DNA of 64,000 nucleotides from Bacillota bacterium (GTDB lineage Bacteria; Bacillota; UBA994; UBA5500): assembly GCA_050949085.1 (NCBI GenBank), contig JBMNFB010000009.1, positions 130,379 through 194,378 of the forward strand. The letters are read 5' to 3'. Below are positions 3,209 through 63,946 of this stretch, one piece after another. The notes under the pieces are model-generated. The model was not told where the DNA came from and did not search any database. It saw only the letters and a program-made list of their open reading frames with translations. The translations under genes were made by a program, and so were the position numbers. Positions within the stretch are counted from its first letter, which is position 1, and the number at the start of each line of letters is the position of its first letter.

Positions 3209-3283
3209 TGGAGCGGAAAACGAGATTCGAACTCGCGACCCCCGCCTTGGCAAGGCGGTGCTCTACCGCTGAGCTATTTCCGC
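3209..3283 (-). tRNA. tRNA-Gly (anticodon GCC), CCA encoded
   Basis: Reverse complement reads GCGGAAATAGCTCAGCGGTAGAGCACCGCCTTGCCAAGGCGGGGGTCGCGAGTTCGAATCTCGTTTTCCGCTCCA. It folds into a cloverleaf with anticodon loop TTGCCAA. Confidence 0.85.
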
Positions 3284-3347
3284 TTTCTAGGCTTATTTTA
3301 GTACGGCCCGTCCCGAAAGTCAAGCCGTTTCCGGCTGTAAAGATCAG

Positions 3348-3424
3348 TGGCGCGCCCGGCAGGATTCGAACCTGCGACCACCGGATTCGTAGTCCGTTAC
3401 TCTATCCAGCTGAGCTACGGGCGC
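3348..3424 (-). tRNA. tRNA-Arg (anticodon ACG), CCA encoded
   Basis: Reverse complement reads GCGCCCGTAGCTCAGCTGGATAGAGTAACGGACTACGAATCCGGTGGTCGCAGGTTCGAATCCTGCCGGGCGCGCCA. Anticodon loop is CTACGAA. Confidence 0.8.
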
Positions 3425-3456
3425 GAGTTAGGAATGGGACGTGTCGGAAATAGAAA

Positions 3457-3533
<77 letters not shown>

Positions 3534-3585
3534 ATCCGATTTAGCAAAGAAGAAAACGCGGTTACCCCGCGTATATGAGACAAAT

Positions 3586-3663
3586 TGGGGTGGATGATGG
3601 GACTCGAACCCACGACCCCCAGAGCCACAATCTGATGCTCTATCCAACTGAGCTACATCCACC
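3586..3663 (-). tRNA. tRNA-His (anticodon GTG) with encoded G-1 and CCA
   Basis: Reverse complement reads GGTGGATGTAGCTCAGTTGGATAGAGCATCAGATTGTGGCTCTGGGGGTCGTGGGTTCGAGTCCCATCATCCACCCCA. Anticodon loop TTGTGGC. The extra 5' G is typical of tRNA-His. Confidence 0.8.
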
Positions 3664-3744
3664 ATGTCGTCCTTTCAGACGCAAGACTCATTTTAGCACA
3701 TCTCTGGCCTCGCCGCAAGAGGTGCACCACGGTTTGGAAAGGAA

Positions 3745-3821
<77 letters not shown>

Positions 3822-5410: not shown

Positions 5411-6478
5411 TCAGATGATAAACGGGTTGACTACCGCCGGGCGCGTTACCGGCGTTGACAGGTCTGTCCCCTCGGGCAACGACGGCACCTGCCCGTTGAT
5501 GGTGATCCTGACCTGCGAGACCCCCGGCAGCTCGGTCAGAGTGAGCAGCAATGCTCCCACCAGCGCCTGCTCGGCGGCCCGGCCGCCCCCATAGCCGATC
5601 AGGCTGGGCGAGAAGTCGACGATGGCGGTTCCATCCTCGATCCGCACACTGCGCAGCTCAGTGTTGGCCGGCAGATCAGCCAGCAACCCGCTGATCGCCA
5701 ACGGCCCTTTGATCAACTCCAGCACTGCAGCTGCCGCCGGTTCGTTCGTGTTGGGGATGATCCGCGTGACCGGCACAAAGTAGATAAGGCCGCCGCTGGG
5801 GCCAACCGCCGAAAAGTAGAGATGCACCTTAGCGCCGACTGTCGGGTCGGTCACAGCCGGAGACACTTCCAGATTGAGATCTCGCTGCGCCCGCGAGACG
5901 GGATAGCTCATGGCCAGACCGCTGGGCAGTTCAGTCAGCGGGTGGCCGTTAACCCAGATCTCCACTTCATCGACGGTGGGAAACTCGGTCATGGTATAGA
6001 GGACCGAGTCGATAGCCAGACGCTCGTGGGTAGCGTTGCGGAACTGGAGAAATTCTGGGCTGAAATCGATGATGGCCAGCCCATCGCGAATCGTCATGCC
6101 GAGAAGCTTCGTGCCCTCCGGCAGCGGCAGACCGAAATCGGTACCACTCAGCGCTACCCGGTTTTCCGGCGAATCCACCAACCGCGCCAGCACTTCCTTG
6201 GCCACGCCCTCCACCGGCGGGATGCCCAGCAGATAAGGCACCAGGTAGCGCCCCTGGTAATCCAGCAGATAGACGGTGCGCAAGCGCACATCATCTCCCA
6301 CAGTGGGGATAACGCTGGGCACAAAGGATCCGGTTCGCACCAATGGATCCTCGCCGGCTGGTGGCTGCTCCTGTCCAGGCGGGTGGTTGGTCTGATCGGT
6401 GGGCCAGAGCAGGGAACAACCGGAAACTGAAAGCAGGAAACAGACGCTCAGAACGATCAACAGTAGCTTCCGCAGCAA
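5411..6478 (-). CDS. gerM: GerM-like sporulation/germination lipoprotein (two GerMN domains)
   Basis: Signal peptide with lipobox LLSVSGC. Two tandem GerMN-like domains. Lies next to murI/racE as in Bacillus (gerM-racE). Confidence 0.7.
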   Translation of the reverse strand: MLRKLLLIVLSVCFLLSVSGCSLLWPTDQTNHPPGQEQPPAGEDPLVRTGSFVPSVIPTVGDDVRLRTVYLLDYQGRYLVPYLLGIPPVEGVAKEVLARLVDSPENRVALSGTDFGLPLPEGTKLLGMTIRDGLAIIDFSPEFLQFRNATHERLAIDSVLYTMTEFPTVDEVEIWVNGHPLTELPSGLAMSYPVSRAQRDLNLEVSPAVTDPTVGAKVHLYFSAVGPSGGLIYFVPVTRIIPNTNEPAAAAVLELIKGPLAISGLLADLPANTELRSVRIEDGTAIVDFSPSLIGYGGGRAAEQALVGALLLTLTELPGVSQVRITINGQVPSLPEGTDLSTPVTRPAVVNPFII

Positions 6479-9618: not shown

Positions 9619-9663
9619 GTATTAAGGAGCTAGCGACGGCAGCTCGACTGACAAAACTGCATA

Positions 9664-9757
9664 TGCCACAGGGGAGGTCAATTGTTGATCTGAGAGGAAG
9701 CCAGGCTTCGACCCTTAAAACCTGATGCGGGTAATGCCGCCGTAGGGAGAGACTCTG
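9664..9757 (+). promoter_or_regulatory. TPP (thiamine pyrophosphate) riboswitch, THI element
   Basis: Contains GGGGAGG...CTGAGAGG...ACCC..AACCTGATGCGGGTAATGCCGCCGTAGGGAG. This matches the conserved THI-box core (CTGAGA / AACCTGATC-GGNTAATNCC-GCGTAGGGA). Confidence 0.85.
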
Positions 9758-9773
9758 TTTGATTTTGAGGGAA

Positions 9774-9818: not shown

Positions 9819-10607
9819 ATGAGCAAACCGTACTTGCGCAAACTGATGCCGGTGATCCTGCCCGCTATCCTGCTCCTCCTCTGGGAGGCGACGGTGCGGC
9901 TGGGTGAGCTGCCGCTGTATCTCCTCCCCGCCCCCAGCCAGATTCTCAGGGCATTGCTGGACAACCACCAGGTGATCCTGCCCCATGCGCTGATCACGCT
10001 GGGGGAGGCGGCCCTGGGAATAGTCATCGCTACCGGGCTGGCAGCACTGCTGGGGATAGCCATGGATGCCTGGCCTACATTTCGCCAGGCGGTCTATCCG
10101 CTGATGGTCGTCTCCCAATCGGTGCCAATCATCGTTCTGGCTCCGCTCTTTATCATCTATTTTGGGTTTGGACTGGCGCCGAAGGTGATCACGGTGGTGC
10201 TGATGTGCTTCTTCCCCATCGCCGTCAATCTGGCTGATGGGTTTGGCCAGGTATCCCACAGGCTGGTCGATCTGCTGCGCACCATGGGTGCCACCCGGTG
10301 GGACATCTATCGGATCATCAAACTCCCGGCTGCGGCACCTGCGTTTTTCTCCGGGCTGCGCGTAGCGGCTACCTACAGCATCATGGGGGCGGTCGTGGGC
10401 GAGTGGCTAGGTGGGAGCGGTGGCCTCGGCTACTACATGCTGCGGGTCAAGAACGCTTACATGCTGGATCGCGTCTTCGCCATCGTTCTCCTGATCATCG
10501 TTCTCAGCCTGCTCTGTAACGCCGTCGTTCGCGCCGTCGAGTATCTGCTGACACCCTGGACGCGCTCCAGGTCAGCTACCCCAATCAAGGAAGGTGACAA
10601 CACTTGA
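9819..10607 (+). CDS. thiX: ABC transporter permease, NitT/TauT family (ThiX-like, HMP/pyrimidine uptake)
   Basis: Start [14 protein letters not shown] after GGGGGAGG. Permease with 6 transmembrane segments and an EAA loop. Follows the TPP riboswitch. Confidence 0.75.
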
Positions 10608-11587
10608 AGAAATCGCTGCTTGTTGTACTCTGCGCGCTGCTCGTCCTCAGCCTGACTGCCTGCGTGTCGCGGCAGGATCCGGCTGACCTGACCCCTGTCC
10701 GGGTGATCCTTGACTACCTGCCCAACACCAACCACACCGGGCTCTATGTTGCCAAAGCCAGGGGCTACTACGAGGAAGAAGGGCTGAATGTGGAAATCGT
10801 TCAGCCGTCGGAGGGAGCTACCGCCACTCTCATCGCCACCGGCCAGGGTGAGTTTGGCATCTCCTATCAGGAGGATGTGACCTACGCTCGCACGGCGGAA
10901 GATCCGCTGCCCATCAAGGCTATTGCGACCATCGTGCAGCACAATACGTCGGGATTCGCCTCCTATAGGCCGAAGAATATCACCTCGCCCCGCGACTTCG
11001 AAGGAAAGACGTATGTCAGCTGGGGCTCTGAGGCTGAAGCCGCCGTCATCAAGGCGGTCATGGAAGCCGAAGGGGCTGACTTTTCCACCCTGAATCTGGT
11101 CATCGGGGCCGATGCCAGCCTGGCTTCCCTGCAGTCGAACGTTGACCTGATCTGGATTTTCTATGGCTGGGACGGTATTCGGGCCGAAATGCAGGATTTC
11201 CCCCTCAACTACATCGAGCTGCGCCAGCTGGATGAACGGCTGGACTACTATACACCGGTGATCATTGCCGCAGAGCAGTTGCTGAACGAGAACCCCGAGC
11301 TGGCTCGCAAGTTCCTGGCGGCCACCGCCCGGGGATACGCTGATGCCATCGCCAACCCGATCGCAGCCGCCGACATTCTGGCCGAGGCAGTGCCTGAGTA
11401 TGATGCCGCCTTCCTGCGCAAGAGTCAGGAGTATCTCTCCACCAAATATATAGATGATGCCCCCCGCTGGGGTGAGATGAAGGCAGAGGTCTGGGACAAC
11501 TACACCGAGTTCATGCGGGAAGCCGGTCTGATCAAGAAGGATATGCCGGCCGAAGAAGCGTTTACCAACGAATTCCTGCCCAGGTAG
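10604..11587 (+). CDS. thiY: ABC transporter substrate-binding lipoprotein, NMT1/THI5-like (ThiY-like)
   Basis: Lipobox LSLTAC. NMT1/THI5-type periplasmic binding fold (..[16 protein letters not shown]..). Overlaps the permease stop by 4 nt. Confidence 0.75.
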
Positions 11588-17814: not shown

Positions 17815-18765
17815 ACCGGCTATGCTCAGCCAGGGCACACCCCCTCCGGCGCTGGCGATGCCTCCAGAACTAAGGTATCAAGCGAAACGGGACGGGGAGC
17901 AGCAAAACTCGCCCGCCTAAGACCAGGATTTCTGGTCCTGAGTGACGCCCAGCAGTCTGGTGCACTATCTGGCACCGCCAGGCTCGGGGCGCTTAGGCGG
18001 ACTCAGACAGTTGCTGCATTTTCCCCCGTTCCGTTTCGCTTCTTGTCAACTGACGGCTAATCGCAAGGCACCTTCGCGGGTGATGCCCTGACTTTATCGC
18101 CACTTGCCTACTCCGGTGCAACAACCCTTTGTACCGCGTGACCGGCCACGGCCCTCTGCAGGAGCACAGAACTCAGCCGTGAGGAACGGTCGCTCGCCAG
18201 CCCCCAGGGCACACCCTCTCCGGCGCTGGCGATGCCTCCAGAACTAAGGTATCAAGCGAAACGGGACGGGGAGCAGCAAAACTCGCCCGCCTAAGACCAG
18301 GATTTCTGGTCCTGAGTGACGCCCAGCAGTCTGATGCACTATCAGGCACTGCCAGGCTCGGATTGCTTAGGCGAGCTCAGGCAGTTGCTGCATTTTCCCC
18401 CGTTCCGTTTCGCTTTTTGTCAACTGACGGCTAATCGCAAGGCACCTTCGCGGGTGATGCCCTGTCTTTATCGCCACTTGCCTACTCCGGTGCAATAACC
18501 CTTTGTACCGCGTGACCGGCCACGGCCCTCTGCAGGAGCACAGAACTCAGCCGTGAGGAACGGTCGCTCGCCAGCCCCCAGGGCACACCCTCTCCGGCGC
18601 TGGCGATGCCTCCAGAACTAGGGTATCAAGCGAAACGGGACGGGGAGCAGCAAAACTCGCCCGCCGAAGGCCAGGATTTCTGGTCCTGAGTGACGCCCAG
18701 CAGTCTGATGCACTACCTGGCACCGGCAGGCTCGGATCGCTTAGGCGAGCTCAGATAGTTGCTGC
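17815..18765. repeat. 374-bp tandem direct repeat, 2.5 copies, about 95% identity, non-coding
   Basis: Copies begin at 17831, 18205 and 18579 (exact period 374). The third copy is truncated after GTTGCTGC at 18765. Lies in the convergent intergenic region between dppA and the aminotransferase. Confidence 0.9.
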
Positions 18766-18917
18766 TAGAGCACGGCCGCGGGTACATAAGAGTTTGAGCA
18801 CAAAGAAGGGACGGGTGATCCAAAGGGTCTCCCGCCCCTTTCTGCTTTCCTCCAACGAAGGCTAACAGCGCGGCGGCCTGGCTGCGGAACGCTCGGCGGG
18901 GTGACAACCCCTGCGGC

Positions 18918-22111: not shown

Positions 22112-25705
<3,594 letters not shown>

Positions 25706-30702: not shown

Positions 30703-31728
30703 GTGTATCAATGGCGTCCCAAACGAGTGATCTTCGAGCAGCGCGCCCTGGAATATGAGCGCGGGCGCCGTCTATGGGTTCTGTTTTCCCAGCAGCCAGA
30801 CGTTGAGGTCAGGCAGACGTCCTCCCATAACCGGGTCACCGGCATTCCGGGCAAGACTGCCCGGGAGGCCTACGACGAAGCCAAACGAACCCTCGTGGTG
30901 GGAGTGCGCAAGAGTGATTCGTTCCAGACCTGTAGACCCTCGGCTCATTACCAGCTGCCGCTGGCCACCAGTTGCCCCGGCAAGTGCGAATACTGCTACC
31001 TGAACACGACACTGGGCAAGAAGCCCTATGTCCGCATCTATGTCAATCTGGAGGAGATCCTGCAGCGCGCCGGCAGGTACATTGAGGAGCGCCTGCCGGA
31101 GACAACCGTCTTCGAAGGAGCCGCCACCAGTGATCCACTGCCGGTGGAGGACTACAGCGATGCGCTGAAGACCGCCATTGAGTATTTCGCTGGGTACGAG
31201 CAGGCCCGCTTCCGTTTCGTGACCAAGTTCACCAATGTCGAATCCCTCCTGGGACTAAGACACAACGGCCACACCCGGATCCGCTTCAGCCTCAACACGG
31301 ATACAATCATCCGCCAGTATGAGGCAGGTACCCCTCACCTGGCGGAGAGAATCGCTGCTGCCCGGAAGGTGCAGCAGGCCGGTTATCCGTTGGGTTTTTT
31401 GATCGCGCCCATTTTCATCTATGATGGCTGGCAGAGCGACTATGCGCAGCTGCTGACGGCGCTGGCAGAACAACTGCCGCCGGAAACCGCGGACCTGACG
31501 TTTGAACTCATCGCCCATCGCTACACAAAGCGAGCCAAACAGAACATCCTGGAGCGCAATCCGGCCAGCACCCTGCCCCTGCGCGAGGCAGAGCGCCGCT
31601 TCAAGTACGGGCAATTCGGCTACGGGAAGTACCTCTACCCAGAAGATGTCTACACGGAGTTGCGCGAGTTCTTCACAGCCAGCATCAACGAGCACTTTCC
31701 GCGCGCCACCATCGCTTACCTGGTCTAG
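30703..31728 (+). CDS. splB: Spore photoproduct lyase (radical SAM)
   Basis: Collinear with B. subtilis SplB over the full length (TSHNRVTGIPGK, CPGKCEYCY CxxxCxxC cluster, YVNLEEIL, GYPLGFLIAPIFIYDGW, FELIAHRYTKRAK). Confidence 0.9.
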   Translation: MYQWRPKRVIFEQRALEYERGRRLWVLFSQQPDVEVRQTSSHNRVTGIPGKTAREAYDEAKRTLVVGVRKSDSFQTCRPSAHYQLPLATSCPGKCEYCYLNTTLGKKPYVRIYVNLEEILQRAGRYIEERLPETTVFEGAATSDPLPVEDYSDALKTAIEYFAGYEQARFRFVTKFTNVESLLGLRHNGHTRIRFSLNTDTIIRQYEAGTPHLAERIAAARKVQQAGYPLGFLIAPIFIYDGWQSDYAQLLTALAEQLPPETADLTFELIAHRYTKRAKQNILERNPASTLPLREAERRFKYGQFGYGKYLYPEDVYTELREFFTASINEHFPRATIAYLV

Positions 31729-32327: not shown

Positions 32328-32573
32328 ATGATCAAACTCTTCAATCTGGAACACTGCCCCTACTGCCGCCGTGTGCGGGAGAAGCTGGATCAGCTGGGGC
32401 TGGAATGCCAGCTGATCGAGGTCCATCCCGAACGCACGCTGCGCCAGGACGTGATCGATATCAGCGGCCAGACCGCTGTGCCTGTGCTCGTCGATGGCGA
32501 CGTGATTATTGCTGATGACGATGATCGGGCCATCGCCTATCTGGAAGAGAAGTATGGCGGGAGCGCATACTAA
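32328..32573 (+). CDS. Glutaredoxin-like protein (CPYC active site)
   Basis: MIKLFNLEHCPYCRRVREKLDQLG...TAVPVLVDGDVIIADD. Thioredoxin fold with a CxxC motif. GGAGG lies upstream of the ATG at 32328. Confidence 0.75.
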   Translation: MIKLFNLEHCPYCRRVREKLDQLGLECQLIEVHPERTLRQDVIDISGQTAVPVLVDGDVIIADDDDRAIAYLEEKYGGSAY

Positions 32574-42523: not shown

Positions 42524-43447
42524 CTAGAAGAGGACGGCCGCCAAGAGTGGTATGGAGAGAGCCGACAGCAGAGTGGAGATGAAGACGGCCTGAGAGGCCA
42601 GCGACGGGTTCGCTCCGTATTCCTGAGCCAGGATCACCGAGTTGACTGCAGCCGGCATGCCGGAGAGGATGGTCGGTACCCCGACCAACAGTGGGTCGGC
42701 GATAAACAGGCGCAGGATCGCCCAGATAACATAGGGAATCGCCAGCAGGCGCATCAGGCTGACGGCATAGACACGCCAGTTGCCAAACACTGTCCGCGCT
42801 TCCATGTTGGCCAGGATTCCCCCGACCAGGATCATAGACAGGGGCGTTGTCAGCGAACCGAGGGTGGCCAGGGCCGAGCTGATCGCCCCCGGCAACTGCA
42901 CCGAAAAGACAAACAGCACCAGGCCGATAGCGCAGGCGGCGCTGGCTGGGCTGATCAGCGAGCGCCAGTTAAAGCGGGCGCCTTCCTCGCGACCCAGGCT
43001 GAGCATCGCTACCCCCAGGGTAAACACCAACAGGTTAAACGGCAGATTGTAGATGGCGGCATAAAACAGCGCTTTCTCCCCGAATATGGTCTGGATCACC
43101 GGGAAGCCCATGAAGCCCACATTGGGGAACATCGTTACAAAACGGAAAACGCCCAATTCTGCGGGTGGCGTTTTTAGCAGAGCCGGCAAGAGCCAGGCCA
43201 TGAGCGCCGAAAACGCGTAAGTGAGCACGGCAATGCCCAGCATCTGACCGCCAGCCTTGAGCAGCTCGGCATCATAGGATTGAAGCAGCGAGTTGATGAT
43301 CAGAGCGGGAAGCGCCACCTTCAGCAGAAATCCAGAGAGACCAGCGATAAAGTTGTCGCTGATTACCTGCAGTTTGCGGGTGACAAAACCGACGATGAGG
43401 ATAATGAACAGGATAGAGATCTGTTCAAAGACGCCATAGAAGCCCAT
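42524..43447 (-). CDS. AEC family transporter (auxin-efflux-carrier / malate permease-like)
   Basis: 10-TM protein with the AEC/MleP pattern. Start MGFYGVF after AAAGGGAGAG. Confidence 0.75.
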   Translation of the reverse strand: MGFYGVFEQISILFIILIVGFVTRKLQVISDNFIAGLSGFLLKVALPALIINSLLQSYDAELLKAGGQMLGIAVLTYAFSALMAWLLPALLKTPPAELGVFRFVTMFPNVGFMGFPVIQTIFGEKALFYAAIYNLPFNLLVFTLGVAMLSLGREEGARFNWRSLISPASAACAIGLVLFVFSVQLPGAISSALATLGSLTTPLSMILVGGILANMEARTVFGNWRVYAVSLMRLLAIPYVIWAILRLFIADPLLVGVPTILSGMPAAVNSVILAQEYGANPSLASQAVFISTLLSALSIPLLAAVLF

Positions 43448-43645
43448 TGGTCTCTCCCTTTCCGTTATTGATGCCACGTCATATGTTCCTATGATAGCAG
43501 GTCATTGCACGCAACCCAAGCGCGCCAACCAGAGATCAGTTTTGTTTGCTGCGTCTAGACCTGCTGCCTTGCTTCTTGTACAATAAAATTCGGCATACAT
43601 AATTCTTAGCATTGAATCTATTTCAATCGGAGGAGGTTATCGCCC

Positions 43646-43909
43646 ATGAAGCAGATCACCCTGTTCGGCAGCAGCCTTTGACCCGGCTGCGCCCCGGTGA
43701 AAGAGTTTCTTTCCCAAAATGATGTCGAGTTCACCTATGTGGACATCACCAGCAGTATGCGCAATCTGCGGGATTTCCTGCGCTACCGCGACAGTCACCC
43801 AGCATTTGCAGAGGTCCGCGAGAAGAACCGGGTCGGTGTGCCCTGTATCGTCATCGAGGATGGCGAAAAGATCCTCTTTGGCAAGCCCGACCTGACAGAG
43901 CTCGCCTAG
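43646..43909 (+). CDS. Glutaredoxin-like selenoprotein (YruB-type Grx with U-P-G-C active site); in-frame TGA at 43679-43681 read as selenocysteine
   Basis: ATG at 43646 follows GGAGGAGG. Translation reads MKQITLFGSSL-U-PGCAPVKEFLSQNDVEFTYVDI...VGVPCIVIEDGEKILFGKPD. The TGA sits exactly where the first Cys of the CxxC motif belongs, and the frame is continuous with ORF 43697..43909. Confidence 0.7.
43696..43715 (+). promoter_or_regulatory. Candidate bacterial SECIS-like hairpin
   Basis: GGTGAAAGA-GTT-TCTTTCCC: a 6-bp perfect stem plus 2 GC pairs, with an apical G-U-containing loop about 24 nt downstream of the UGA. Confidence 0.4.
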
Positions 43910-43923
43910 GTCCGAAGCAGGCA

Positions 43924-43950
43924 GCAGGCGTGTCACAGCGACACGCCTGC
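43924..43950. terminator. Bidirectional terminator hairpin
   Basis: GCAGGCGTGTC-ACAGC-GACACGCCTGC between convergent genes. Confidence 0.6.
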
Positions 43951-43955
43951 CCTGT

Positions 43956-44195
43956 TTACATCTTCAGCAGCGAGCTCAGGGTTACCGCCTTTAGCTCCGG
44001 CATGGTGACCACCTTGGAGTAGATCAGCTTCTTGGCCAGCTTCAGGTCATCCTCCCTCCCCAGATTCAGCTGGCGCCCGCTGGCCAGGGTGAGGATCTTG
44101 CTCTCCGGGTCAAACTCGCCCTGCTGCGCTTCCTGAGTGTTCTTCAGAGTGTAGGTTAGCTGCATGCCATTCACCTCCATCCCTAGCTTGAGCAA
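43956..44195 (-). CDS. Hypothetical small protein
   Basis: 79-aa ORF (or 74 aa from MEVNG). No recognisable motif. Confidence 0.4.
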   Translation of the reverse strand: MLKLGMEVNGMQLTYTLKNTQEAQQGEFDPESKILTLASGRQLNLGREDDLKLAKKLIYSKVVTMPELKAVTLSSLLKM

Positions 44196-62086: not shown

Positions 62087-63946
62087 TTATCTGCTTCTGC
62101 GGCGAACCCGCTTCTGATAGATGGGAAGATGGTCAGGCAGCGACCCTACAATAACCTTTTGTTGCTCAGCGTCCCAGAGGAAGTAGATGCGGATCAGGTG
62201 GGTGCCTACCCCGTGTTTGAGGTGTAGGTCGAGCAAGCGCCGTTCTCTGATTCCCTCCTGATTGGTTACCTGGATTTCATAGTGCCGCTTGGCTACCTGC
62301 AGTGTCGCCCTGCCCACAGAGCATGGCACCCAGAGATAGTCAATCTGGTAGAGCTCGAGCATCGCCTGATCGATCTCCTGCCGCCGATACCGCGCATAGG
62401 CAGCCAGAAAATATAGACCATCAGCTAGCGCCGTCGGCGAGGCGGGGCGCTTCGCCTTTCTCAGCTCCGCTACCGCGCGTTCGTGGAGAACTACATCCTC
62501 GGCGAGGTTATCCCTGACCCATTCCTCGATCTGCCCCAGCGTTGTTGGAAACTTCGCCGCGTCCTGGGCCTTGCGCTGATAGAAGGCGATGGCTCTGTCC
62601 CGATCAGCGATCAGGGAGGCCTGTCCTGCTAGCTTGTCCCGCAGCTGATCCACCTGCTGCCGCAGCTCGCTACAGCGGTCCACTGCCTGGCGGAACTCCC
62701 GCTCGAGGCGCTCATTGGCTGCGGCACGCTGGATGATGTCGCGGCGCTCCTCCTGTAGCTCGCGGATCCTGGTGCGGAGCTCGTTGCATTCTTCCTGCAA
62801 GAGCTCCACCGTCGCCCCCTGCTTGGCGAGACTGGCGGTTCTCCGGCTGCTCTGCTGGATCTGGGCATCGGAAAAGAACAGCACATCGTGGAAATCGACG
62901 TCCCGGCGTTTGGGGAAGAGCTTTAGTTTCTCAGCTAGTTCCCGGCGAGCCTGCTCTGGGTCGCAGACGATCTCCTGATAGGGGATTACCTCCACATACG
63001 AGTCTGGATAGAAGATGACCGCGTCGCCGGGCTGCAAGTCACTGTCGGGAACGCATTGCCTAAGCTTCGCCAACTGACTGTCGGCGCAACTGGCCACATG
63101 GGCAAAGGCGACCAACGACTGCGCCAACCGCTGAGCGTTGATCTGTCGCGGCCGAATTTCCTTCGGCGGCAGCAGGCGAATCGCCAGCCGAGCGCGCTGA
63201 GACTCCAGTACCGAAGCAGGCATCAATGCTCTGTGGAGTTCCTCGCCCTCAAATCCGTGCAGCGCCGCAGCAATCTCGGCACTCGGCGGCTCCGTGATGA
63301 CCACCAGCGGCAATGCCCTCTCCCTGGCGCGGATCAACCCCTTCAGGTTGCGGAAGTCGGCATTGGTCGTTACGGGTATTATCTCGGGCCGAAGCTTCAC
63401 CACCTGCCGCAATCCCAGAAGGGGGTTGTTGGCGATACTTCTGACGGCCACCGGCCGGAATACCTCACAATCCACCGTCTGGTGCTCCGGCTCTGAGCAG
63501 ATGGTGCGAAACCCCACCTGAACTCGATCGCGGACGATCCGCAGGGCCATATTGGTCTCAAAGAGCCTGCCGATAACCGGCGGGCGCGGCACTGGGCCGT
63601 CCTGATTGGCACCCTGATCGGGTTCAACCAGCCGCAGGGCCCAGATGCCATCCTCTGGCACGTAAAGCACGTCTACTTTATGACCTAAATCCGCATGGAA
63701 CGACCTGATGGCGCCTGCCGGCAGCGATGCATAATCGTCGGCTGTCGGCAGCTCCATCTCAGCCGGCAGCTCGCCAAAAGCCGCAAATCGTTTGCGCAAC
63801 CAGCTCATGATCTCCAGCACAGCTATCTGTAATGCCAGATCGGGTGCCAGCTGCCTGTTGTAGATCTCCGCATAGAGCTGAAAAGTTGAGTATCGTTTGT
63901 TTACCTGTAACGGAATGGGCTCTCCTCTCACCCGTGCCATGTTCAT
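62087..63946 (-). CDS. Large hypothetical protein (619 aa) with central coiled-coil
   Basis: Strong ribosome-binding site AGGAGG. An N-terminal domain of about 330 aa, an Arg/Glu-rich coiled-coil at about 380-470, and a C-terminal domain of about 150 aa. No recognisable motif. Confidence 0.5.
   Translation of the reverse strand: MNMARVRGEPIPLQVNKRYSTFQLYAEIYNRQLAPDLALQIAVLEIMSWLRKRFAAFGELPAEMELPTADDYASLPAGAIRSFHADLGHKVDVLYVPEDGIWALRLVEPDQGANQDGPVPRPPVIGRLFETNMALRIVRDRVQVGFRTICSEPEHQTVDCEVFRPVAVRSIANNPLLGLRQVVKLRPEIIPVTTNADFRNLKGLIRARERALPLVVITEPPSAEIAAALHGFEGEELHRALMPASVLESQRARLAIRLLPPKEIRPRQINAQRLAQSLVAFAHVASCADSQLAKLRQCVPDSDLQPGDAVIFYPDSYVEVIPYQEIVCDPEQARRELAEKLKLFPKRRDVDFHDVLFFSDAQIQQSSRRTASLAKQGATVELLQEECNELRTRIRELQEERRDIIQRAAANERLEREFRQAVDRCSELRQQVDQLRDKLAGQASLIADRDRAIAFYQRKAQDAAKFPTTLGQIEEWVRDNLAEDVVLHERAVAELRKAKRPASPTALADGLYFLAAYARYRRQEIDQAMLELYQIDYLWVPCSVGRATLQVAKRHYEIQVTNQEGIRERRLLDLHLKHGVGTHLIRIYFLWDAEQQKVIVGSLPDHLPIYQKRVRRRSR

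What the first reader, a model, noticed from the sequence alone, without database searches (positions are those of the whole stretch)
43646..43909. Glutaredoxin-like selenoprotein hidden behind an in-frame TGA
The ORF track only reports 43697..43909, but an ATG at 43646 with a strong GGAGGAGG ribosome-binding site opens the same frame 51 nt upstream. The only interruption is TGA at 43679-43681. The translation MKQITLFGSSL-U-PGCAPVKEFLSQNDVEFTYVDI...VPCIVIEDGEKILFGKPD is a YruB-type glutaredoxin-like thioredoxin fold. The TGA falls exactly at the first redox-active Cys of the CxxC motif, giving U-P-G-C. A stable hairpin GGTGAAAGA-GTT-TCTTTCCC starts 15 nt after the UGA at a SECIS-compatible distance. 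A Cys-containing Grx (CPYC) lies at 32328..32573. Standard annotation would call this a truncated gene or a pseudogene.
Basis: partly seen in the sequence, partly recalled or inferred. Interest (0 to 1): 0.72.

Follow-up and report, generated by a model that had tools for sequence, protein, structure and literature searches.

The report
Selenocysteine glutaredoxin gene, miscalled as truncated
This is a real gene for a small redox protein that uses the rare amino acid selenocysteine (encoded by a "stop" codon) in its active site. The type of protein is already known, but this branch of the family is routinely cut short by automatic annotation.

Summary
ATG 43646 (Shine-Dalgarno GGAGGAGG, 43629-43636) opens an 87-codon frame ending at TAG 43907-43909, interrupted only by TGA 43679-43681. 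With Cys at the TGA, the product passes the Pfam Glutaredoxin threshold from profile position 1; the 70-aa annotated ORF does not. Full-length Cys homologues (63% identical, no gaps) place the TGA on the first Cys of CxxC. Twenty relatives from genomes of 30-67% GC keep the start, the upstream frame and the TGA. The hairpin 43696-43715 has no synonymous variation in Sec forms, but decays in Cys forms encoding the same peptide VKEFL. In a hairpin-anchored metagenome scan, 119 of 120 hits had TGA at the redox codon. A 74%-identical orthologue lies 5.4 kb from a tRNA-Sec. Sec-glutaredoxin is a known, experimentally verified selenoprotein (C. oremlandii Grx1), which carries the same VKEFLS peptide at the same offset. 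What is mildly new: this gene belongs to a distinct "glutaredoxin-related" subfamily with an extra helix, not YruB by NCBIfam's cut-off. About a third of its clusters appear Sec-type, and RefSeq truncates it in all five cultured isolates checked. Sec machinery could not be checked for the window's own genome. No compensatory base-pair changes were seen.

The parts
43556..43584 (+). Candidate sigma-70-type promoter (TAGACC-17-TACAAT). This is a consensus match only.
   Evidence: 9 of 12 matches. Three such sites were found in 560 nt against 0.2 expected. Function is not shown.
43629..43636 (+). Shine-Dalgarno sequence GGAGGAGG, 9 nt upstream of the ATG
   Evidence: Every orthologous locus has a comparable SD (GGAGG, AAGGAGG, GAGGAGG) 10-13 codons upstream of the TGA. 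There is no SD in front of the annotated GTG at 43697.
43646..43909 (+). Complete coding sequence of the selenoprotein: 87 codons plus the TAG stop. The product is MKQITLFGSSL-U-PGCAPVKEFLSQNDVEFTYVDITSSMRNLRDFLRYRDSHPAFAEVREKNRVGVPCIVIEDGEKILFGKPDLTELA.
   Evidence: Pfam PF00462: 37.6 bits full length against 21.8 truncated, cut-off 22.9. (63% identity, no gaps, to Cys homologue P0190)..
43679..43681 (+). Sec-UGA codon (residue 12), the first position of the U-P-G-C redox motif
   Evidence: TGA at this aligned codon in 17 of 17 orthologues and 20 of 20 genome or metagenome relatives. It aligns with Cys12 of CxxC homologues. 119 of 120 hairpin-anchored metagenome hits carry TGA here.
43688..43690 (+). 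Resolving Cys codon (TGC, residue 15) of the U-x-x-C motif
   Evidence: Invariant Cys, with TGC and TGT both used, in all orthologues. Invariant C15 in the Cys-form alignment.
43696..43715 (+). SECIS hairpin. The stems are 43696-43697 plus 43699-43704, pairing with 43708-43715. U43698 is bulged. The apical loop GUU is at 43705-43707. The hairpin overlaps codons V18-K-E-F-L-S-Q24.
   Evidence: fold. (no synonymous variation at GTG, GAG, TTT, CTT). (kept in divergent Sec forms, lost in Cys forms with the same peptide). (93% of cells paired, no compensatory changes).. It fits the published bSECIS constraints quoted.
43697..43909 (+). The ORF as gene callers report it (GTG start, 70 aa). This is an annotation artefact that lacks strand beta-1 and the redox motif.
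   Evidence: P0001 in JGI is this 70-aa product, named 'glutaredoxin-related protein'. Its Pfam score is below threshold.
43925..43949 (.). Perfect 10-bp inverted repeat (CAGGCGTGTC-ACAGC-GACACGCCTG) between the convergent Grx gene and the 79-aa ORF. It is a possible bidirectional terminator hairpin.
   Evidence: Read directly. The terminator scan did not call it because the T-run is weak, so function is inferred only.

Best explanation
Window 43646-43909 encodes an 87-residue thioredoxin-fold oxidoreductase of the glutaredoxin family. Its catalytic nucleophile is selenocysteine, residue 12 of a U-P-G-C motif.

How it is made. During translation, the UGA at 43679-43681 is decoded by Sec-tRNA(Sec), delivered by SelB. 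SelB is recruited by the hairpin at 43696-43715. That hairpin has a G-first GUU loop and lies 23 nt after the UGA, inside the coding sequence for helix alpha-1 (peptide VKEFLSQ). Shown here: the frame, the Cys/Sec alignment, nucleotide-level constraint on the hairpin that is tied to the presence of TGA, and a tRNA-Sec beside an orthologue.

How it works (inferred). The selenolate attacks a disulfide, sulfenate or selenenylsulfide in a substrate. Cys15 then resolves the intermediate as an intramolecular Se-S bond, which an upstream reductase or low-molecular-weight thiol re-reduces. A likely client is methionine sulfoxide reductase A. This rests on gene neighbourhood in five related loci and on the published C. 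oremlandii Grx1-MsrA pair. No MsrA gene is adjacent in this window, and the electron donor is unknown.
For: 1. Frame and start. ATG plus a strong SD at 43629-43646, with a single in-frame TGA. All 20 relatives have an SD plus start codon 10-13 codons upstream of the TGA.

2. Protein-level selection upstream of the TGA. F8, G9 and S10 are conserved with free synonymous variation. The N-terminal 17 residues raise the Pfam Glutaredoxin score from 21.8 to 37.6 bits, and the match then starts at profile position 1.

3. Sec/Cys pairing. P0190, P0197 and P0201 are 60-65% identical full-length Cys forms, and the P0190 alignment is gap-free with C12 opposite the TGA. C12 and C15 are invariant in 76 Cys forms.

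4. TGA conservation. It is present in 20 of 20 loci from Bacillota, Chloroflexota and Acidobacteriota, at 30-67% GC. The 'W' forms in databases are TGA in the DNA.

5. SECIS.
- Codons GTG, GAG, TTT and CTT are invariant in 17 of 17 sequences, while other V, E, F and L columns have 1-2.4 bits of codon entropy.
- Divergent Sec forms keep the stem GAAAG(A)/(U)CUUUC.
- Cys forms encoding the same VKEFL use other codons and lose the hairpin.
- A scan anchored on the hairpin, with the redox codon's third base left free, gave 119 TGA, 1 TGT and no TGC or TGG.
- The geometry meets the published bSECIS model: loop of 3 nt starting GU, 8 bp, 23-nt spacing, -9.5 kcal/mol in 48 nt.

6. Machinery. A tRNA-Sec (Rfam 77.2 bits, cut-off 47) lies 5.4 kb from the 74%-identical orthologue in L004.

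7. Genetic code. TGA is an ordinary stop for many genes in the window, so this is not a code-4 or code-25 genome.

8. Fold. An AlphaFold model of P0190 (pLDDT 95) puts the redox residue at the N-terminus of alpha-1 in a Trx fold. The best PDB matches include cGrx1, a native selenoprotein.

9. MsrA genes lie 1.3-3 kb away in L001, L004, L005, L006 and L010.
Against: - No selA, selB, selD or tRNA-Sec is present in the 64-kb window. The rest of this genome could not be examined, so the organism's Sec-decoding ability is inferred from the intact gene and from relatives.
- No other selenoprotein gene was recognised in the window (the scan is noisy).
- The hairpin shows no compensatory double substitutions. 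Its free energy is unremarkable against shuffles, and the isolated 23-nt hairpin is -7.1 kcal/mol, just short of the -7.5 criterion.
- No Rfam SECIS model matches it.
- The genome-contig loci were retrieved with a pattern that includes the VKEFLSQN peptide, so those loci are not an unbiased sample. The codon-level and Cys-form controls mitigate this but do not remove it.
- MsrA is not adjacent in the window, and the neighbouring MsrA genes in relatives are Cys forms.
- There is no biochemical evidence of selenium incorporation for this subfamily.
Confidence: 0.92

Rival explanations
1. The annotated 70-aa ORF starting at GTG 43697 is the real gene. The upstream 11 codons ending in TGA are an unrelated short leader or chance ORF.
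For: Gene callers choose this model in JGI and RefSeq. GTG is a legitimate start codon.
Against: - There is no SD before the GTG, while a strong SD precedes the upstream ATG.
- The 70-aa product lacks strand beta-1 and the CxxC motif, and it falls below the Pfam threshold.
- The upstream 11-12 codons are conserved as protein, with synonymous drift, in 17 orthologues.
- Those codons align without gaps to the N-terminus of Cys homologues.
- The GTG is invariant because it is part of the hairpin stem. In Cys forms the same Val is GTT.
Confidence: 0.02
2. It is a pseudogene: a Cys-glutaredoxin that suffered a TGY-to-TGA nonsense mutation. Alternatively, it is a relic selenoprotein gene in a lineage that has lost Sec decoding.
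For: No Sec machinery is visible in the window. A single-base change turns TGC or TGT into TGA.
Against: - The same TGA occurs in 20 of 20 relatives across phyla and in 119 of 120 metagenome hits.
- The SD, start codon, frame, second Cys and SECIS are all intact in the window, with no frameshift or additional stop.
- The window hairpin is identical in its 6-bp core to all the others.
- A recent loss of Sec decoding cannot be excluded from 64 kb alone, but it would be expected to leave decay or a reversion to Cys, as in L080.
Confidence: 0.04
3. The UGA is read by something other than Sec: Trp or Gly reassignment as in genetic codes 4 and 25, or near-cognate read-through.
For: Many database entries show W at this position.
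Against: - Those W residues come from translation tables applied to short metagenome contigs. The same genes in RefSeq isolates are called under code 11 and truncated.
- TGA terminates many well-supported genes in this window.
- The position is the catalytic Cys in homologues, where Trp or Gly would abolish function.
- A dedicated tRNA-Sec sits beside an orthologue.
Confidence: 0.02

Closest known systems
Selenoprotein glutaredoxin 1 of Clostridium (Alkaliphilus) oremlandii OhILAs (cGrx1; PDB 7c10, 7c12, 7c13; Kim et al. 2011 Mol Microbiol, cited in PMC13188914; PMC7642778)
   Same: - It is a native selenoprotein with a U-P-x-C motif at the N-terminus of alpha-1.
- The following peptide is identical (x-x-VKEFLS-x-N-x-VEFT) at the same offset from Sec, which implies the same type of in-frame SECIS.
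- It has a thioredoxin fold (TM 0.67/0.77 to the model of the Cys homologue).
- It is the proposed reductant of MsrA, and MsrA genes neighbour five orthologues of the window gene.
   Different: - Sequence similarity is confined to residues 2-45. Identity in the structural alignment is about 30%.
- The window protein has an extra helix (alpha-2', residues ~52-59) carrying the family signature LKxFLxxRD…F…VG[IVL]P, and only a stub of the C-terminal helix.
- cGrx1's partner MsrA is itself a selenoprotein, whereas the neighbouring MsrA genes here are Cys forms.
Generic 'Glutaredoxin (Grx), PF00462, UxxC' selenoprotein family of the prokaryotic selenoproteome catalogues (Zhang and Gladyshev; PMC1794560, PMC13188914)
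   Same: It passes the Pfam PF00462 threshold and has the UxxC motif. It occurs in anaerobic Bacillota, like the catalogued cases in Alkaliphilus and Moorella.
   Different: The catalogues give one representative (a Geobacter protein) and describe Sec-Grx as limited to a few species. Here the same SECIS was found in more than 120 metagenome contigs, and a separate subfamily has about one third Sec-type clusters. I could not check whether this subfamily is already included in those catalogues or in BSepDB.
'Glutaredoxin-related protein' subfamily. The name is given by JGI, UniProt and NCBI to the Cys forms and to the truncated Sec forms. From memory it corresponds to COG4545; I did not verify that.
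   Same: The window protein is a full member by sequence. A profile of the family retrieves it at 1e-24. It is 63% identical to Cys member P0190 and carries the invariant R, G and P and the near-invariant L, F and D of the family.
   Different: Public entries for the Sec-type members are truncated at the helix alpha-1 Val or carry W. None that I saw is annotated with selenocysteine.
Thioredoxin-like protein BC3987 of Bacillus cereus (PDB 3zij, 3zit)
   Same: It is the best Foldseek match. It is a small CxxC redoxin with the peptide CPPCVIVKEFLKHNN after the motif.
   Different: It is a Cys protein of 78 aa without the extra helix. It shares 27-29% identity and there is no evidence of a Sec form.
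YruB-family glutaredoxin-like protein (NCBIfam TIGR02196)
   Same: It is the top-scoring NCBIfam model and a small CxxC glutaredoxin-like protein of anaerobic Firmicutes.
   Different: The score of 36.2 bits is far below the 88.55-bit cut-off, so this is not a member by the family's own criterion.

Membership tests
Bacterial selenoprotein gene (Sec-UGA decoded through an in-frame SECIS) | An in-frame UGA that aligns with Cys in homologues (Sec/Cys pair) | tested here: met
   A gap-free 63% alignment to P0190 places C12 opposite the TGA. C12 is invariant in 76 Cys forms. TGA is present in 20 of 20 relatives.
Bacterial selenoprotein gene (Sec-UGA decoded through an in-frame SECIS) | Coding potential on both sides of the UGA, under purifying selection | tested here: met
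   Upstream residues F8, G9 and S10 and the downstream residues are conserved with synonymous variation. The Pfam match starts at profile position 1 only when the upstream part is included.
Bacterial selenoprotein gene (Sec-UGA decoded through an in-frame SECIS) | [quoted passage not shown] | tested here: met
   Loop GUU, 8 bp with a bulged U, 23-nt spacing, -9.5 kcal/mol in the 48-nt context. The isolated hairpin is -7.1, which is borderline on that criterion.
Bacterial selenoprotein gene (Sec-UGA decoded through an in-frame SECIS) | Evolutionary support for the RNA structure | tested here: inconclusive
   Support is strong from synonymous-site invariance that is tied to the TGA. Compensatory covariation is absent: 0 pairs changed on both sides.
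Bacterial selenoprotein gene (Sec-UGA decoded through an in-frame SECIS) | selA, selB, selD and tRNA-Sec present in the same genome | not testable with these tools
   None is in the 64-kb window, and the genome is not in the searchable collections (one search returned no identical locus). In relative L004, a tRNA-Sec lies 5.4 kb from the orthologue.
Bacterial selenoprotein gene (Sec-UGA decoded through an in-frame SECIS) | Selenium actually incorporated at the UGA | not testable with these tools
   This requires 75Se labelling or mass spectrometry.
Glutaredoxin, Pfam PF00462 | Whole-protein score at or above the gathering threshold (22.9 bits) | tested here: met
   37.6 bits with Cys substituted for Sec. 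The truncated form scores 21.8.
Glutaredoxin, Pfam PF00462 | Thioredoxin fold with the redox motif at the N-terminus of helix alpha-1 and a cis-Pro loop before beta-3 | tested here: met
   AlphaFold model of the 63%-identical Cys homologue: pLDDT 95, order b1-CxxC-a1-b2-a2-a2'-b3-b4-a3, with an invariant G-x-P before b3. The PDB matches are Grx and Trx-like proteins.
Glutaredoxin, Pfam PF00462 | Glutathione-dependent activity | not testable with these tools
   No assay is available. Glutathione-binding residues were not analysed.
YruB family, NCBIfam TIGR02196 | Score at or above the curated cut-off (88.55 bits) | tested here: not met
   36.2 bits.
cGrx1-type Sec-glutaredoxin (C. oremlandii) | A U-P-x-C motif followed by x-x-VKEFLS | tested here: met
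cGrx1-type Sec-glutaredoxin (C. oremlandii) | Full-length sequence homology (orthology) | tested here: not met
   The phmmer alignment covers only residues 2-45. The C-terminal half has a different architecture.
UXX-star glutaredoxin-like selenoproteins (NCBIfam NF041212, NF041114) | Score at or above the cut-off (66 or 72 bits), and a Sec in a C-terminal UXX motif | tested here: not met
   Scores are 26.9 and 21.0 bits. The protein ends in …TELA with no C-terminal Sec.
NrdH-redoxin (NCBIfam TIGR02194) | Score at or above the cut-off (85.75 bits) | tested here: not met
   18.2 bits.

The most novel reading that the evidence does not exclude
The window gene may represent a distinct clade of Sec-using glutaredoxin-like proteins that the selenoprotein catalogues do not yet list. 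This is the 'glutaredoxin-related protein' subfamily with an extra helix, in which about one third of sequence clusters appear to be Sec-type.

The 17-nt element GUGAARGAGUUUCUUUC may also be a single SECIS conserved at the sequence level. It is shared across at least four glutaredoxin architectures (this subfamily, classical ~77-aa Grx, Grx-PDZ-like fusions, and cGrx1) and across several phyla at 30-72% GC. That would imply either sequence-specific SelB recognition or repeated transfer of a 'Sec module', meaning the N-terminal beta1-U-x-x-C-alpha1 segment together with its SECIS.
Probability: 0.3. Interest if true: 0.45.

Novelty: new member of a known kind. Interest (0 to 1): 0.3.

Why it matters
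Practically, it corrects an annotation. The true product is an 87-residue selenoprotein, not a 70-residue fragment. The same error is present in RefSeq for at least five cultured species (Wukongibacter baidiensis, Acetoanaerobium pronyense, Fonticella tunisiensis and two Oceanirhabdus) and in many metagenome entries.

It also marks the unknown organism of this window as a probable selenium user.

The simple signature TGA-N6-TGY-N6-GTGAARGAGTTTCTTTC was about 99% specific for TGA in the one scan run (119 of 120). It could be used to rescue Sec-glutaredoxins in bulk.

Scientifically it adds breadth rather than a new principle. Sec-glutaredoxins, their in-frame SECIS elements and their frequent misannotation are already established.

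Tried and rejected
I used the two 70-aa database forms instead.
Only the truncated forms could be looked up.
- A metagenome scan with a 58-sequence family alignment failed because no stretch was conserved enough. I replaced it with a DNA-pattern scan.
- Rfam found no SECIS family at the site, either at gathering threshold or at E up to 10 on 43600-43800. The only hit there was a spurious RSV_PBS match on the opposite strand.
- Pfam annotation of the 30 largest ORFs in the window found no selA, selB or selD.
- A crude scan for other genes interrupted by an in-frame TGA gave only noise typical of a high-GC sequence, with no convincing second selenoprotein.
- The covariation test found no compensatory changes, so I do not claim covariation support.
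- Literature searches for 'COG4545' and 'YruB' with 'selenoprotein' returned nothing relevant.
- The primary paper on cGrx1 (PMC3062254) is not held. I relied on PMC7642778 and on reviews.
- I considered and rejected three alternatives: the GTG start as the true start, a pseudogene, and a code-4/25 reading. These are covered under the rival explanations.

Full report
**Observation**

- The mechanical ORF list reports only 43697..43909, with a GTG start and 70 aa.
- An ATG at 43646 opens the same frame 51 nt upstream. It is preceded by GGAGGAGG (43629-43636) with a 9-nt spacer.
- The only interruption is TGA at 43679-43681. The frame ends at TAG 43907-43909.
- Read through, the product is MKQITLFGSSL-U-PGCAPVKEFLSQNDVEFTYVDITSSMRNLRDFLRYRDSHPAFAEVREKNRVGVPCIVIEDGEKILFGKPDLTELA.
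- The hairpin GG(U)GAAAGA-GUU-UCUUUCCC occupies 43696-43715.
- The separate Cys glutaredoxin (CPYC) at 32328-32573 is also real.

**Is the upstream part coding?**

With Cys in place of the TGA, the 87-aa protein scores 37.6 bits against Pfam Glutaredoxin (threshold 22.9), matching from profile position 1. The 70-aa form scores 21.8, below threshold.

A genome-collection scan gave 21 related loci.
- In all 19 retrieved through the peptide VKEFLSQN, and in metagenome locus L001, an in-frame TGA lies exactly six codons upstream, in a U-x-x-C motif.
- In each, a Shine-Dalgarno sequence plus a start codon lies a further 10-13 codons upstream.
- These genomes span 30-67% GC and include Bacillota, Chloroflexota and an Acidobacteriota MAG.
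- In 17 orthologue-type sequences, the residues before the TGA (F8, G9, S10) are conserved while their codons drift synonymously. That indicates selection on a translated protein.

**Does the TGA stand for the catalytic Cys?**

An exhaustive HMMER search and a profile search (1639 proteins at E ≤ 1e-5) show one family with three kinds of database entry:
- full-length Cys forms, mostly CPDC;
- entries truncated exactly at the Val that begins helix alpha-1;
- full-length entries with W at the redox position.

The W entries are TGA in the DNA.

The Cys form P0190 is 63% identical to the window protein over all 87 residues without a gap, and its C12 lies opposite the TGA. C12 and C15 are invariant in 76 Cys forms.

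An AlphaFold model of P0190 (pLDDT 95, pTM 0.85) is a thioredoxin fold in the order b1-CxxC-a1-b2-a2-a2'-b3-b4-short a3. The redox residue is at the N-terminus of a1.

**Is the hairpin a SECIS?**

On energy alone it is unremarkable (z about -0.9). Rfam has no model that matches it. The evidence is comparative.
- In 17 Sec-type orthologues, the codons GTG, GAG, TTT and CTT (V19, E21, F22, L23 of the alignment; residues 18 and 20-22 of the window protein) are invariant. Other Val, Glu, Phe and Leu columns of the same genes have 1-2.4 bits of codon entropy.
- More divergent Sec forms keep the stem GAAAG(A)/(U)CUUUC even where the peptide changes. Phe to Ala uses GCT and Phe to Val uses GTT, and both preserve the closing A-U pair.
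- Two Cys forms that encode the identical peptide VKEFL use GTT AAG GAA TTC CTC and GTT AAG GAG TTT TTG, and they lose the hairpin.
Of these, 119 had TGA, one had TGT, and none had TGC or TGG.
- The geometry meets the published bacterial SECIS model, whose constraints are quoted from PMC13188914. The window has a 3-nt loop beginning GU, 8 bp with a bulged U, 23 nt from UGA to loop, and -9.5 kcal/mol in a 48-nt context. The isolated hairpin is -7.1.

One limitation must be stated. A pair-by-pair count found no compensatory double substitutions, and the core is simply invariant. The structure is therefore supported by TGA-linked conservation, not by covariation.

**Sec machinery**

The window contains five ordinary tRNAs and no tRNA-Sec. 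None of its 30 largest ORFs is SelA, SelB or SelD. That says little for a 64-kb window, and the source genome is not in the searchable collections.

In the closest genomic relative (L004, 74% identical, a Bacillota MAG), a tRNA-Sec with anticodon UCA lies 5.4 kb from the orthologue. Rfam scores it 77.2 bits against a threshold of 47.

TGA is the normal stop for many well-supported genes in the window, so a reassigned code is excluded.

**Mechanism**

Shown here: the gene structure, the Sec/Cys correspondence, and a cis element whose conservation depends on the UGA.

Inferred from established knowledge of bacterial Sec insertion (summarised in PMC13188914): SelB bound to Sec-tRNA(Sec) is tethered by the hairpin as the ribosome reaches the UGA, and it inserts Sec at residue 12.

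Inferred from glutaredoxin and thioredoxin chemistry, and from the cGrx1 literature (PMC7642778): the selenolate attacks an oxidised substrate, Cys15 resolves the intermediate to an intramolecular Se-S bond, and an unidentified reductant regenerates the protein.

A candidate substrate is MsrA. Cys-type msrA genes lie 1.3-3 kb from the orthologue in L001, L004, L005, L006 and L010. In C. oremlandii, the selenoprotein Grx1 is the proposed reductant of MsrA. In this window the neighbours are instead a Mem_trans transporter, a 79-aa ORF of unknown function and a TlyA-like methyltransferase, so the substrate here is open.

**Comparison with what is known**

Sec-containing glutaredoxin (PF00462, UxxC) is listed among experimentally verified prokaryotic selenoproteins. 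It has been catalogued since 2006 in Geobacter, Alkaliphilus and Moorella.

PDB 7c10 is cGrx1, a native selenoprotein crystallised as the Sec-to-Cys variant. Its sequence C13-P-H-C16-F-T-V-K-E-F-L-S-E-N-N-V-E-F-T has the same peptide at the same offset as the window protein. The kind of thing is therefore already known.

The window protein is not an orthologue of cGrx1. Similarity ends at about residue 45. The rest carries the signature LKxFLxxRD…F…VG[IVL]P with an extra helix.

It is also not YruB by NCBIfam's cut-off (36.2 against 88.55 bits), nor NrdH, nor a UXX-star protein.

It belongs to a subfamily that sources name 'glutaredoxin-related protein'. No solved structure exceeds 30% identity to it.

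Of 150 cluster representatives of this subfamily, 42 look Sec-type and 76 Cys-type. This is a classification by sequence pattern, verified at the DNA level only for the loci fetched.

RefSeq annotates the orthologues in five cultured isolates as 70-72-aa 'hypothetical', 'glutaredoxin domain-containing' or similar proteins. Recent literature stresses that such truncations are common.

**Verdict**

It is a new member, in a poorly annotated subfamily, of an already known kind.

Its value is mainly corrective. It also provides a very specific sequence signature for Sec-glutaredoxins.

The most novel reading still open has two parts: that this subfamily is an uncatalogued Sec clade, and that one sequence-conserved SECIS module is shared across several glutaredoxin architectures and phyla. 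I did not test module transfer.

Noticed in passing
window 17830-18877: A unit of about 374 bp is repeated three times in tandem (100%, 96% and 67% identity to the first copy). It lies between a 270-aa gene and an aminotransferase gene. It contains only short ORFs and has no Rfam match at E up to 0.1. Its nature is unexplained.
   Followed up: partly
L022 5944-6510, L023 5944-6492; also L042, L067, L087, L098, L117, L144: Longer proteins of about 160-190 aa, in Chloroflexota and in metagenomes. An N-terminal Sec-glutaredoxin (U-P-[WY]-C-x-x-VKEFLS, with the same hairpin) is fused through a linker to a C-terminal domain that looks PDZ-like by eye. The domain was not tested against Pfam.
   Followed up: no
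L080 (match on the minus strand) compared with L081: This is the only hairpin-anchored metagenome hit with a Cys codon (TGT) at the redox position, and the SECIS sequence is still intact. Its closest relative in the set, L081, has TGA. It looks like a recent Sec-to-Cys conversion.
   Followed up: no
window 42524-43477 (-); L012, L014, L017 about 370-440 nt downstream of the Grx TGA: A Mem_trans (PF03547, auxin-efflux-carrier-type) transporter gene lies next to the Sec-Grx gene in the window and in three distant low-GC clostridial genomes, though in a different relative orientation. This could be a functional link or a coincidence.
   Followed up: partly
L001 1917-2390 (-), L004 3080-3556 (-), L005, L006, L010: A Cys-type methionine sulfoxide reductase A gene (GCFWG active site, C-terminal GYCH) lies 1.3-3 kb upstream on the opposite strand in the five closest Sec-Grx loci. 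The Prevotella Cys-form locus L021 has an MsrAB-type fusion nearby.
   Followed up: partly
L004 11392-11484 (-): A tRNA-Sec gene (anticodon TCA; Rfam RF01852, 77.2 bits) lies on the same contig as a Sec-Grx orthologue, next to a 404-aa membrane protein. No sel protein genes were seen within the 12 kb held.
   Followed up: partly
L005 6187-6189: The orthologue in this MAG has a TAG where the others have a Lys codon, eight codons before the usual end. This is either a real C-terminal truncation or an assembly error.
   Followed up: no
window 9660-9765 (+): A TPP riboswitch (Rfam 74.7 bits) lies upstream of a gene cluster that includes an NMT1/THI5-like protein (10604-11584). This is ordinary thiamine-related regulation.
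   Followed up: no
window 3209-3821 (-): A cluster of five tRNA genes (Gly-GCC, Arg-ACG, Arg-TCG, His-GTG, Arg-TCT) lies next to trigger factor (1614-2963).
   Followed up: no
window 43956-44195 (-) and 62087-63946 (-): Two ORFs have no Pfam match: a 79-aa ORF convergent with the Sec-Grx gene, and a 619-aa ORF near the end of the window. The 79-aa ORF is not conserved next to the Grx gene in other loci.
   Followed up: partly
window-wide (e.g. 30703-31725, 5414-6478, 22187-25705): The gene content points to a spore-forming anaerobic Bacillota with about 59% GC: spore photoproduct lyase, a GerM-like Germane protein, pyruvate:ferredoxin oxidoreductase, and copper-amine-oxidase-N-domain wall proteins. 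The organism is not among the 185,579 species representatives searched.
   Followed up: partly
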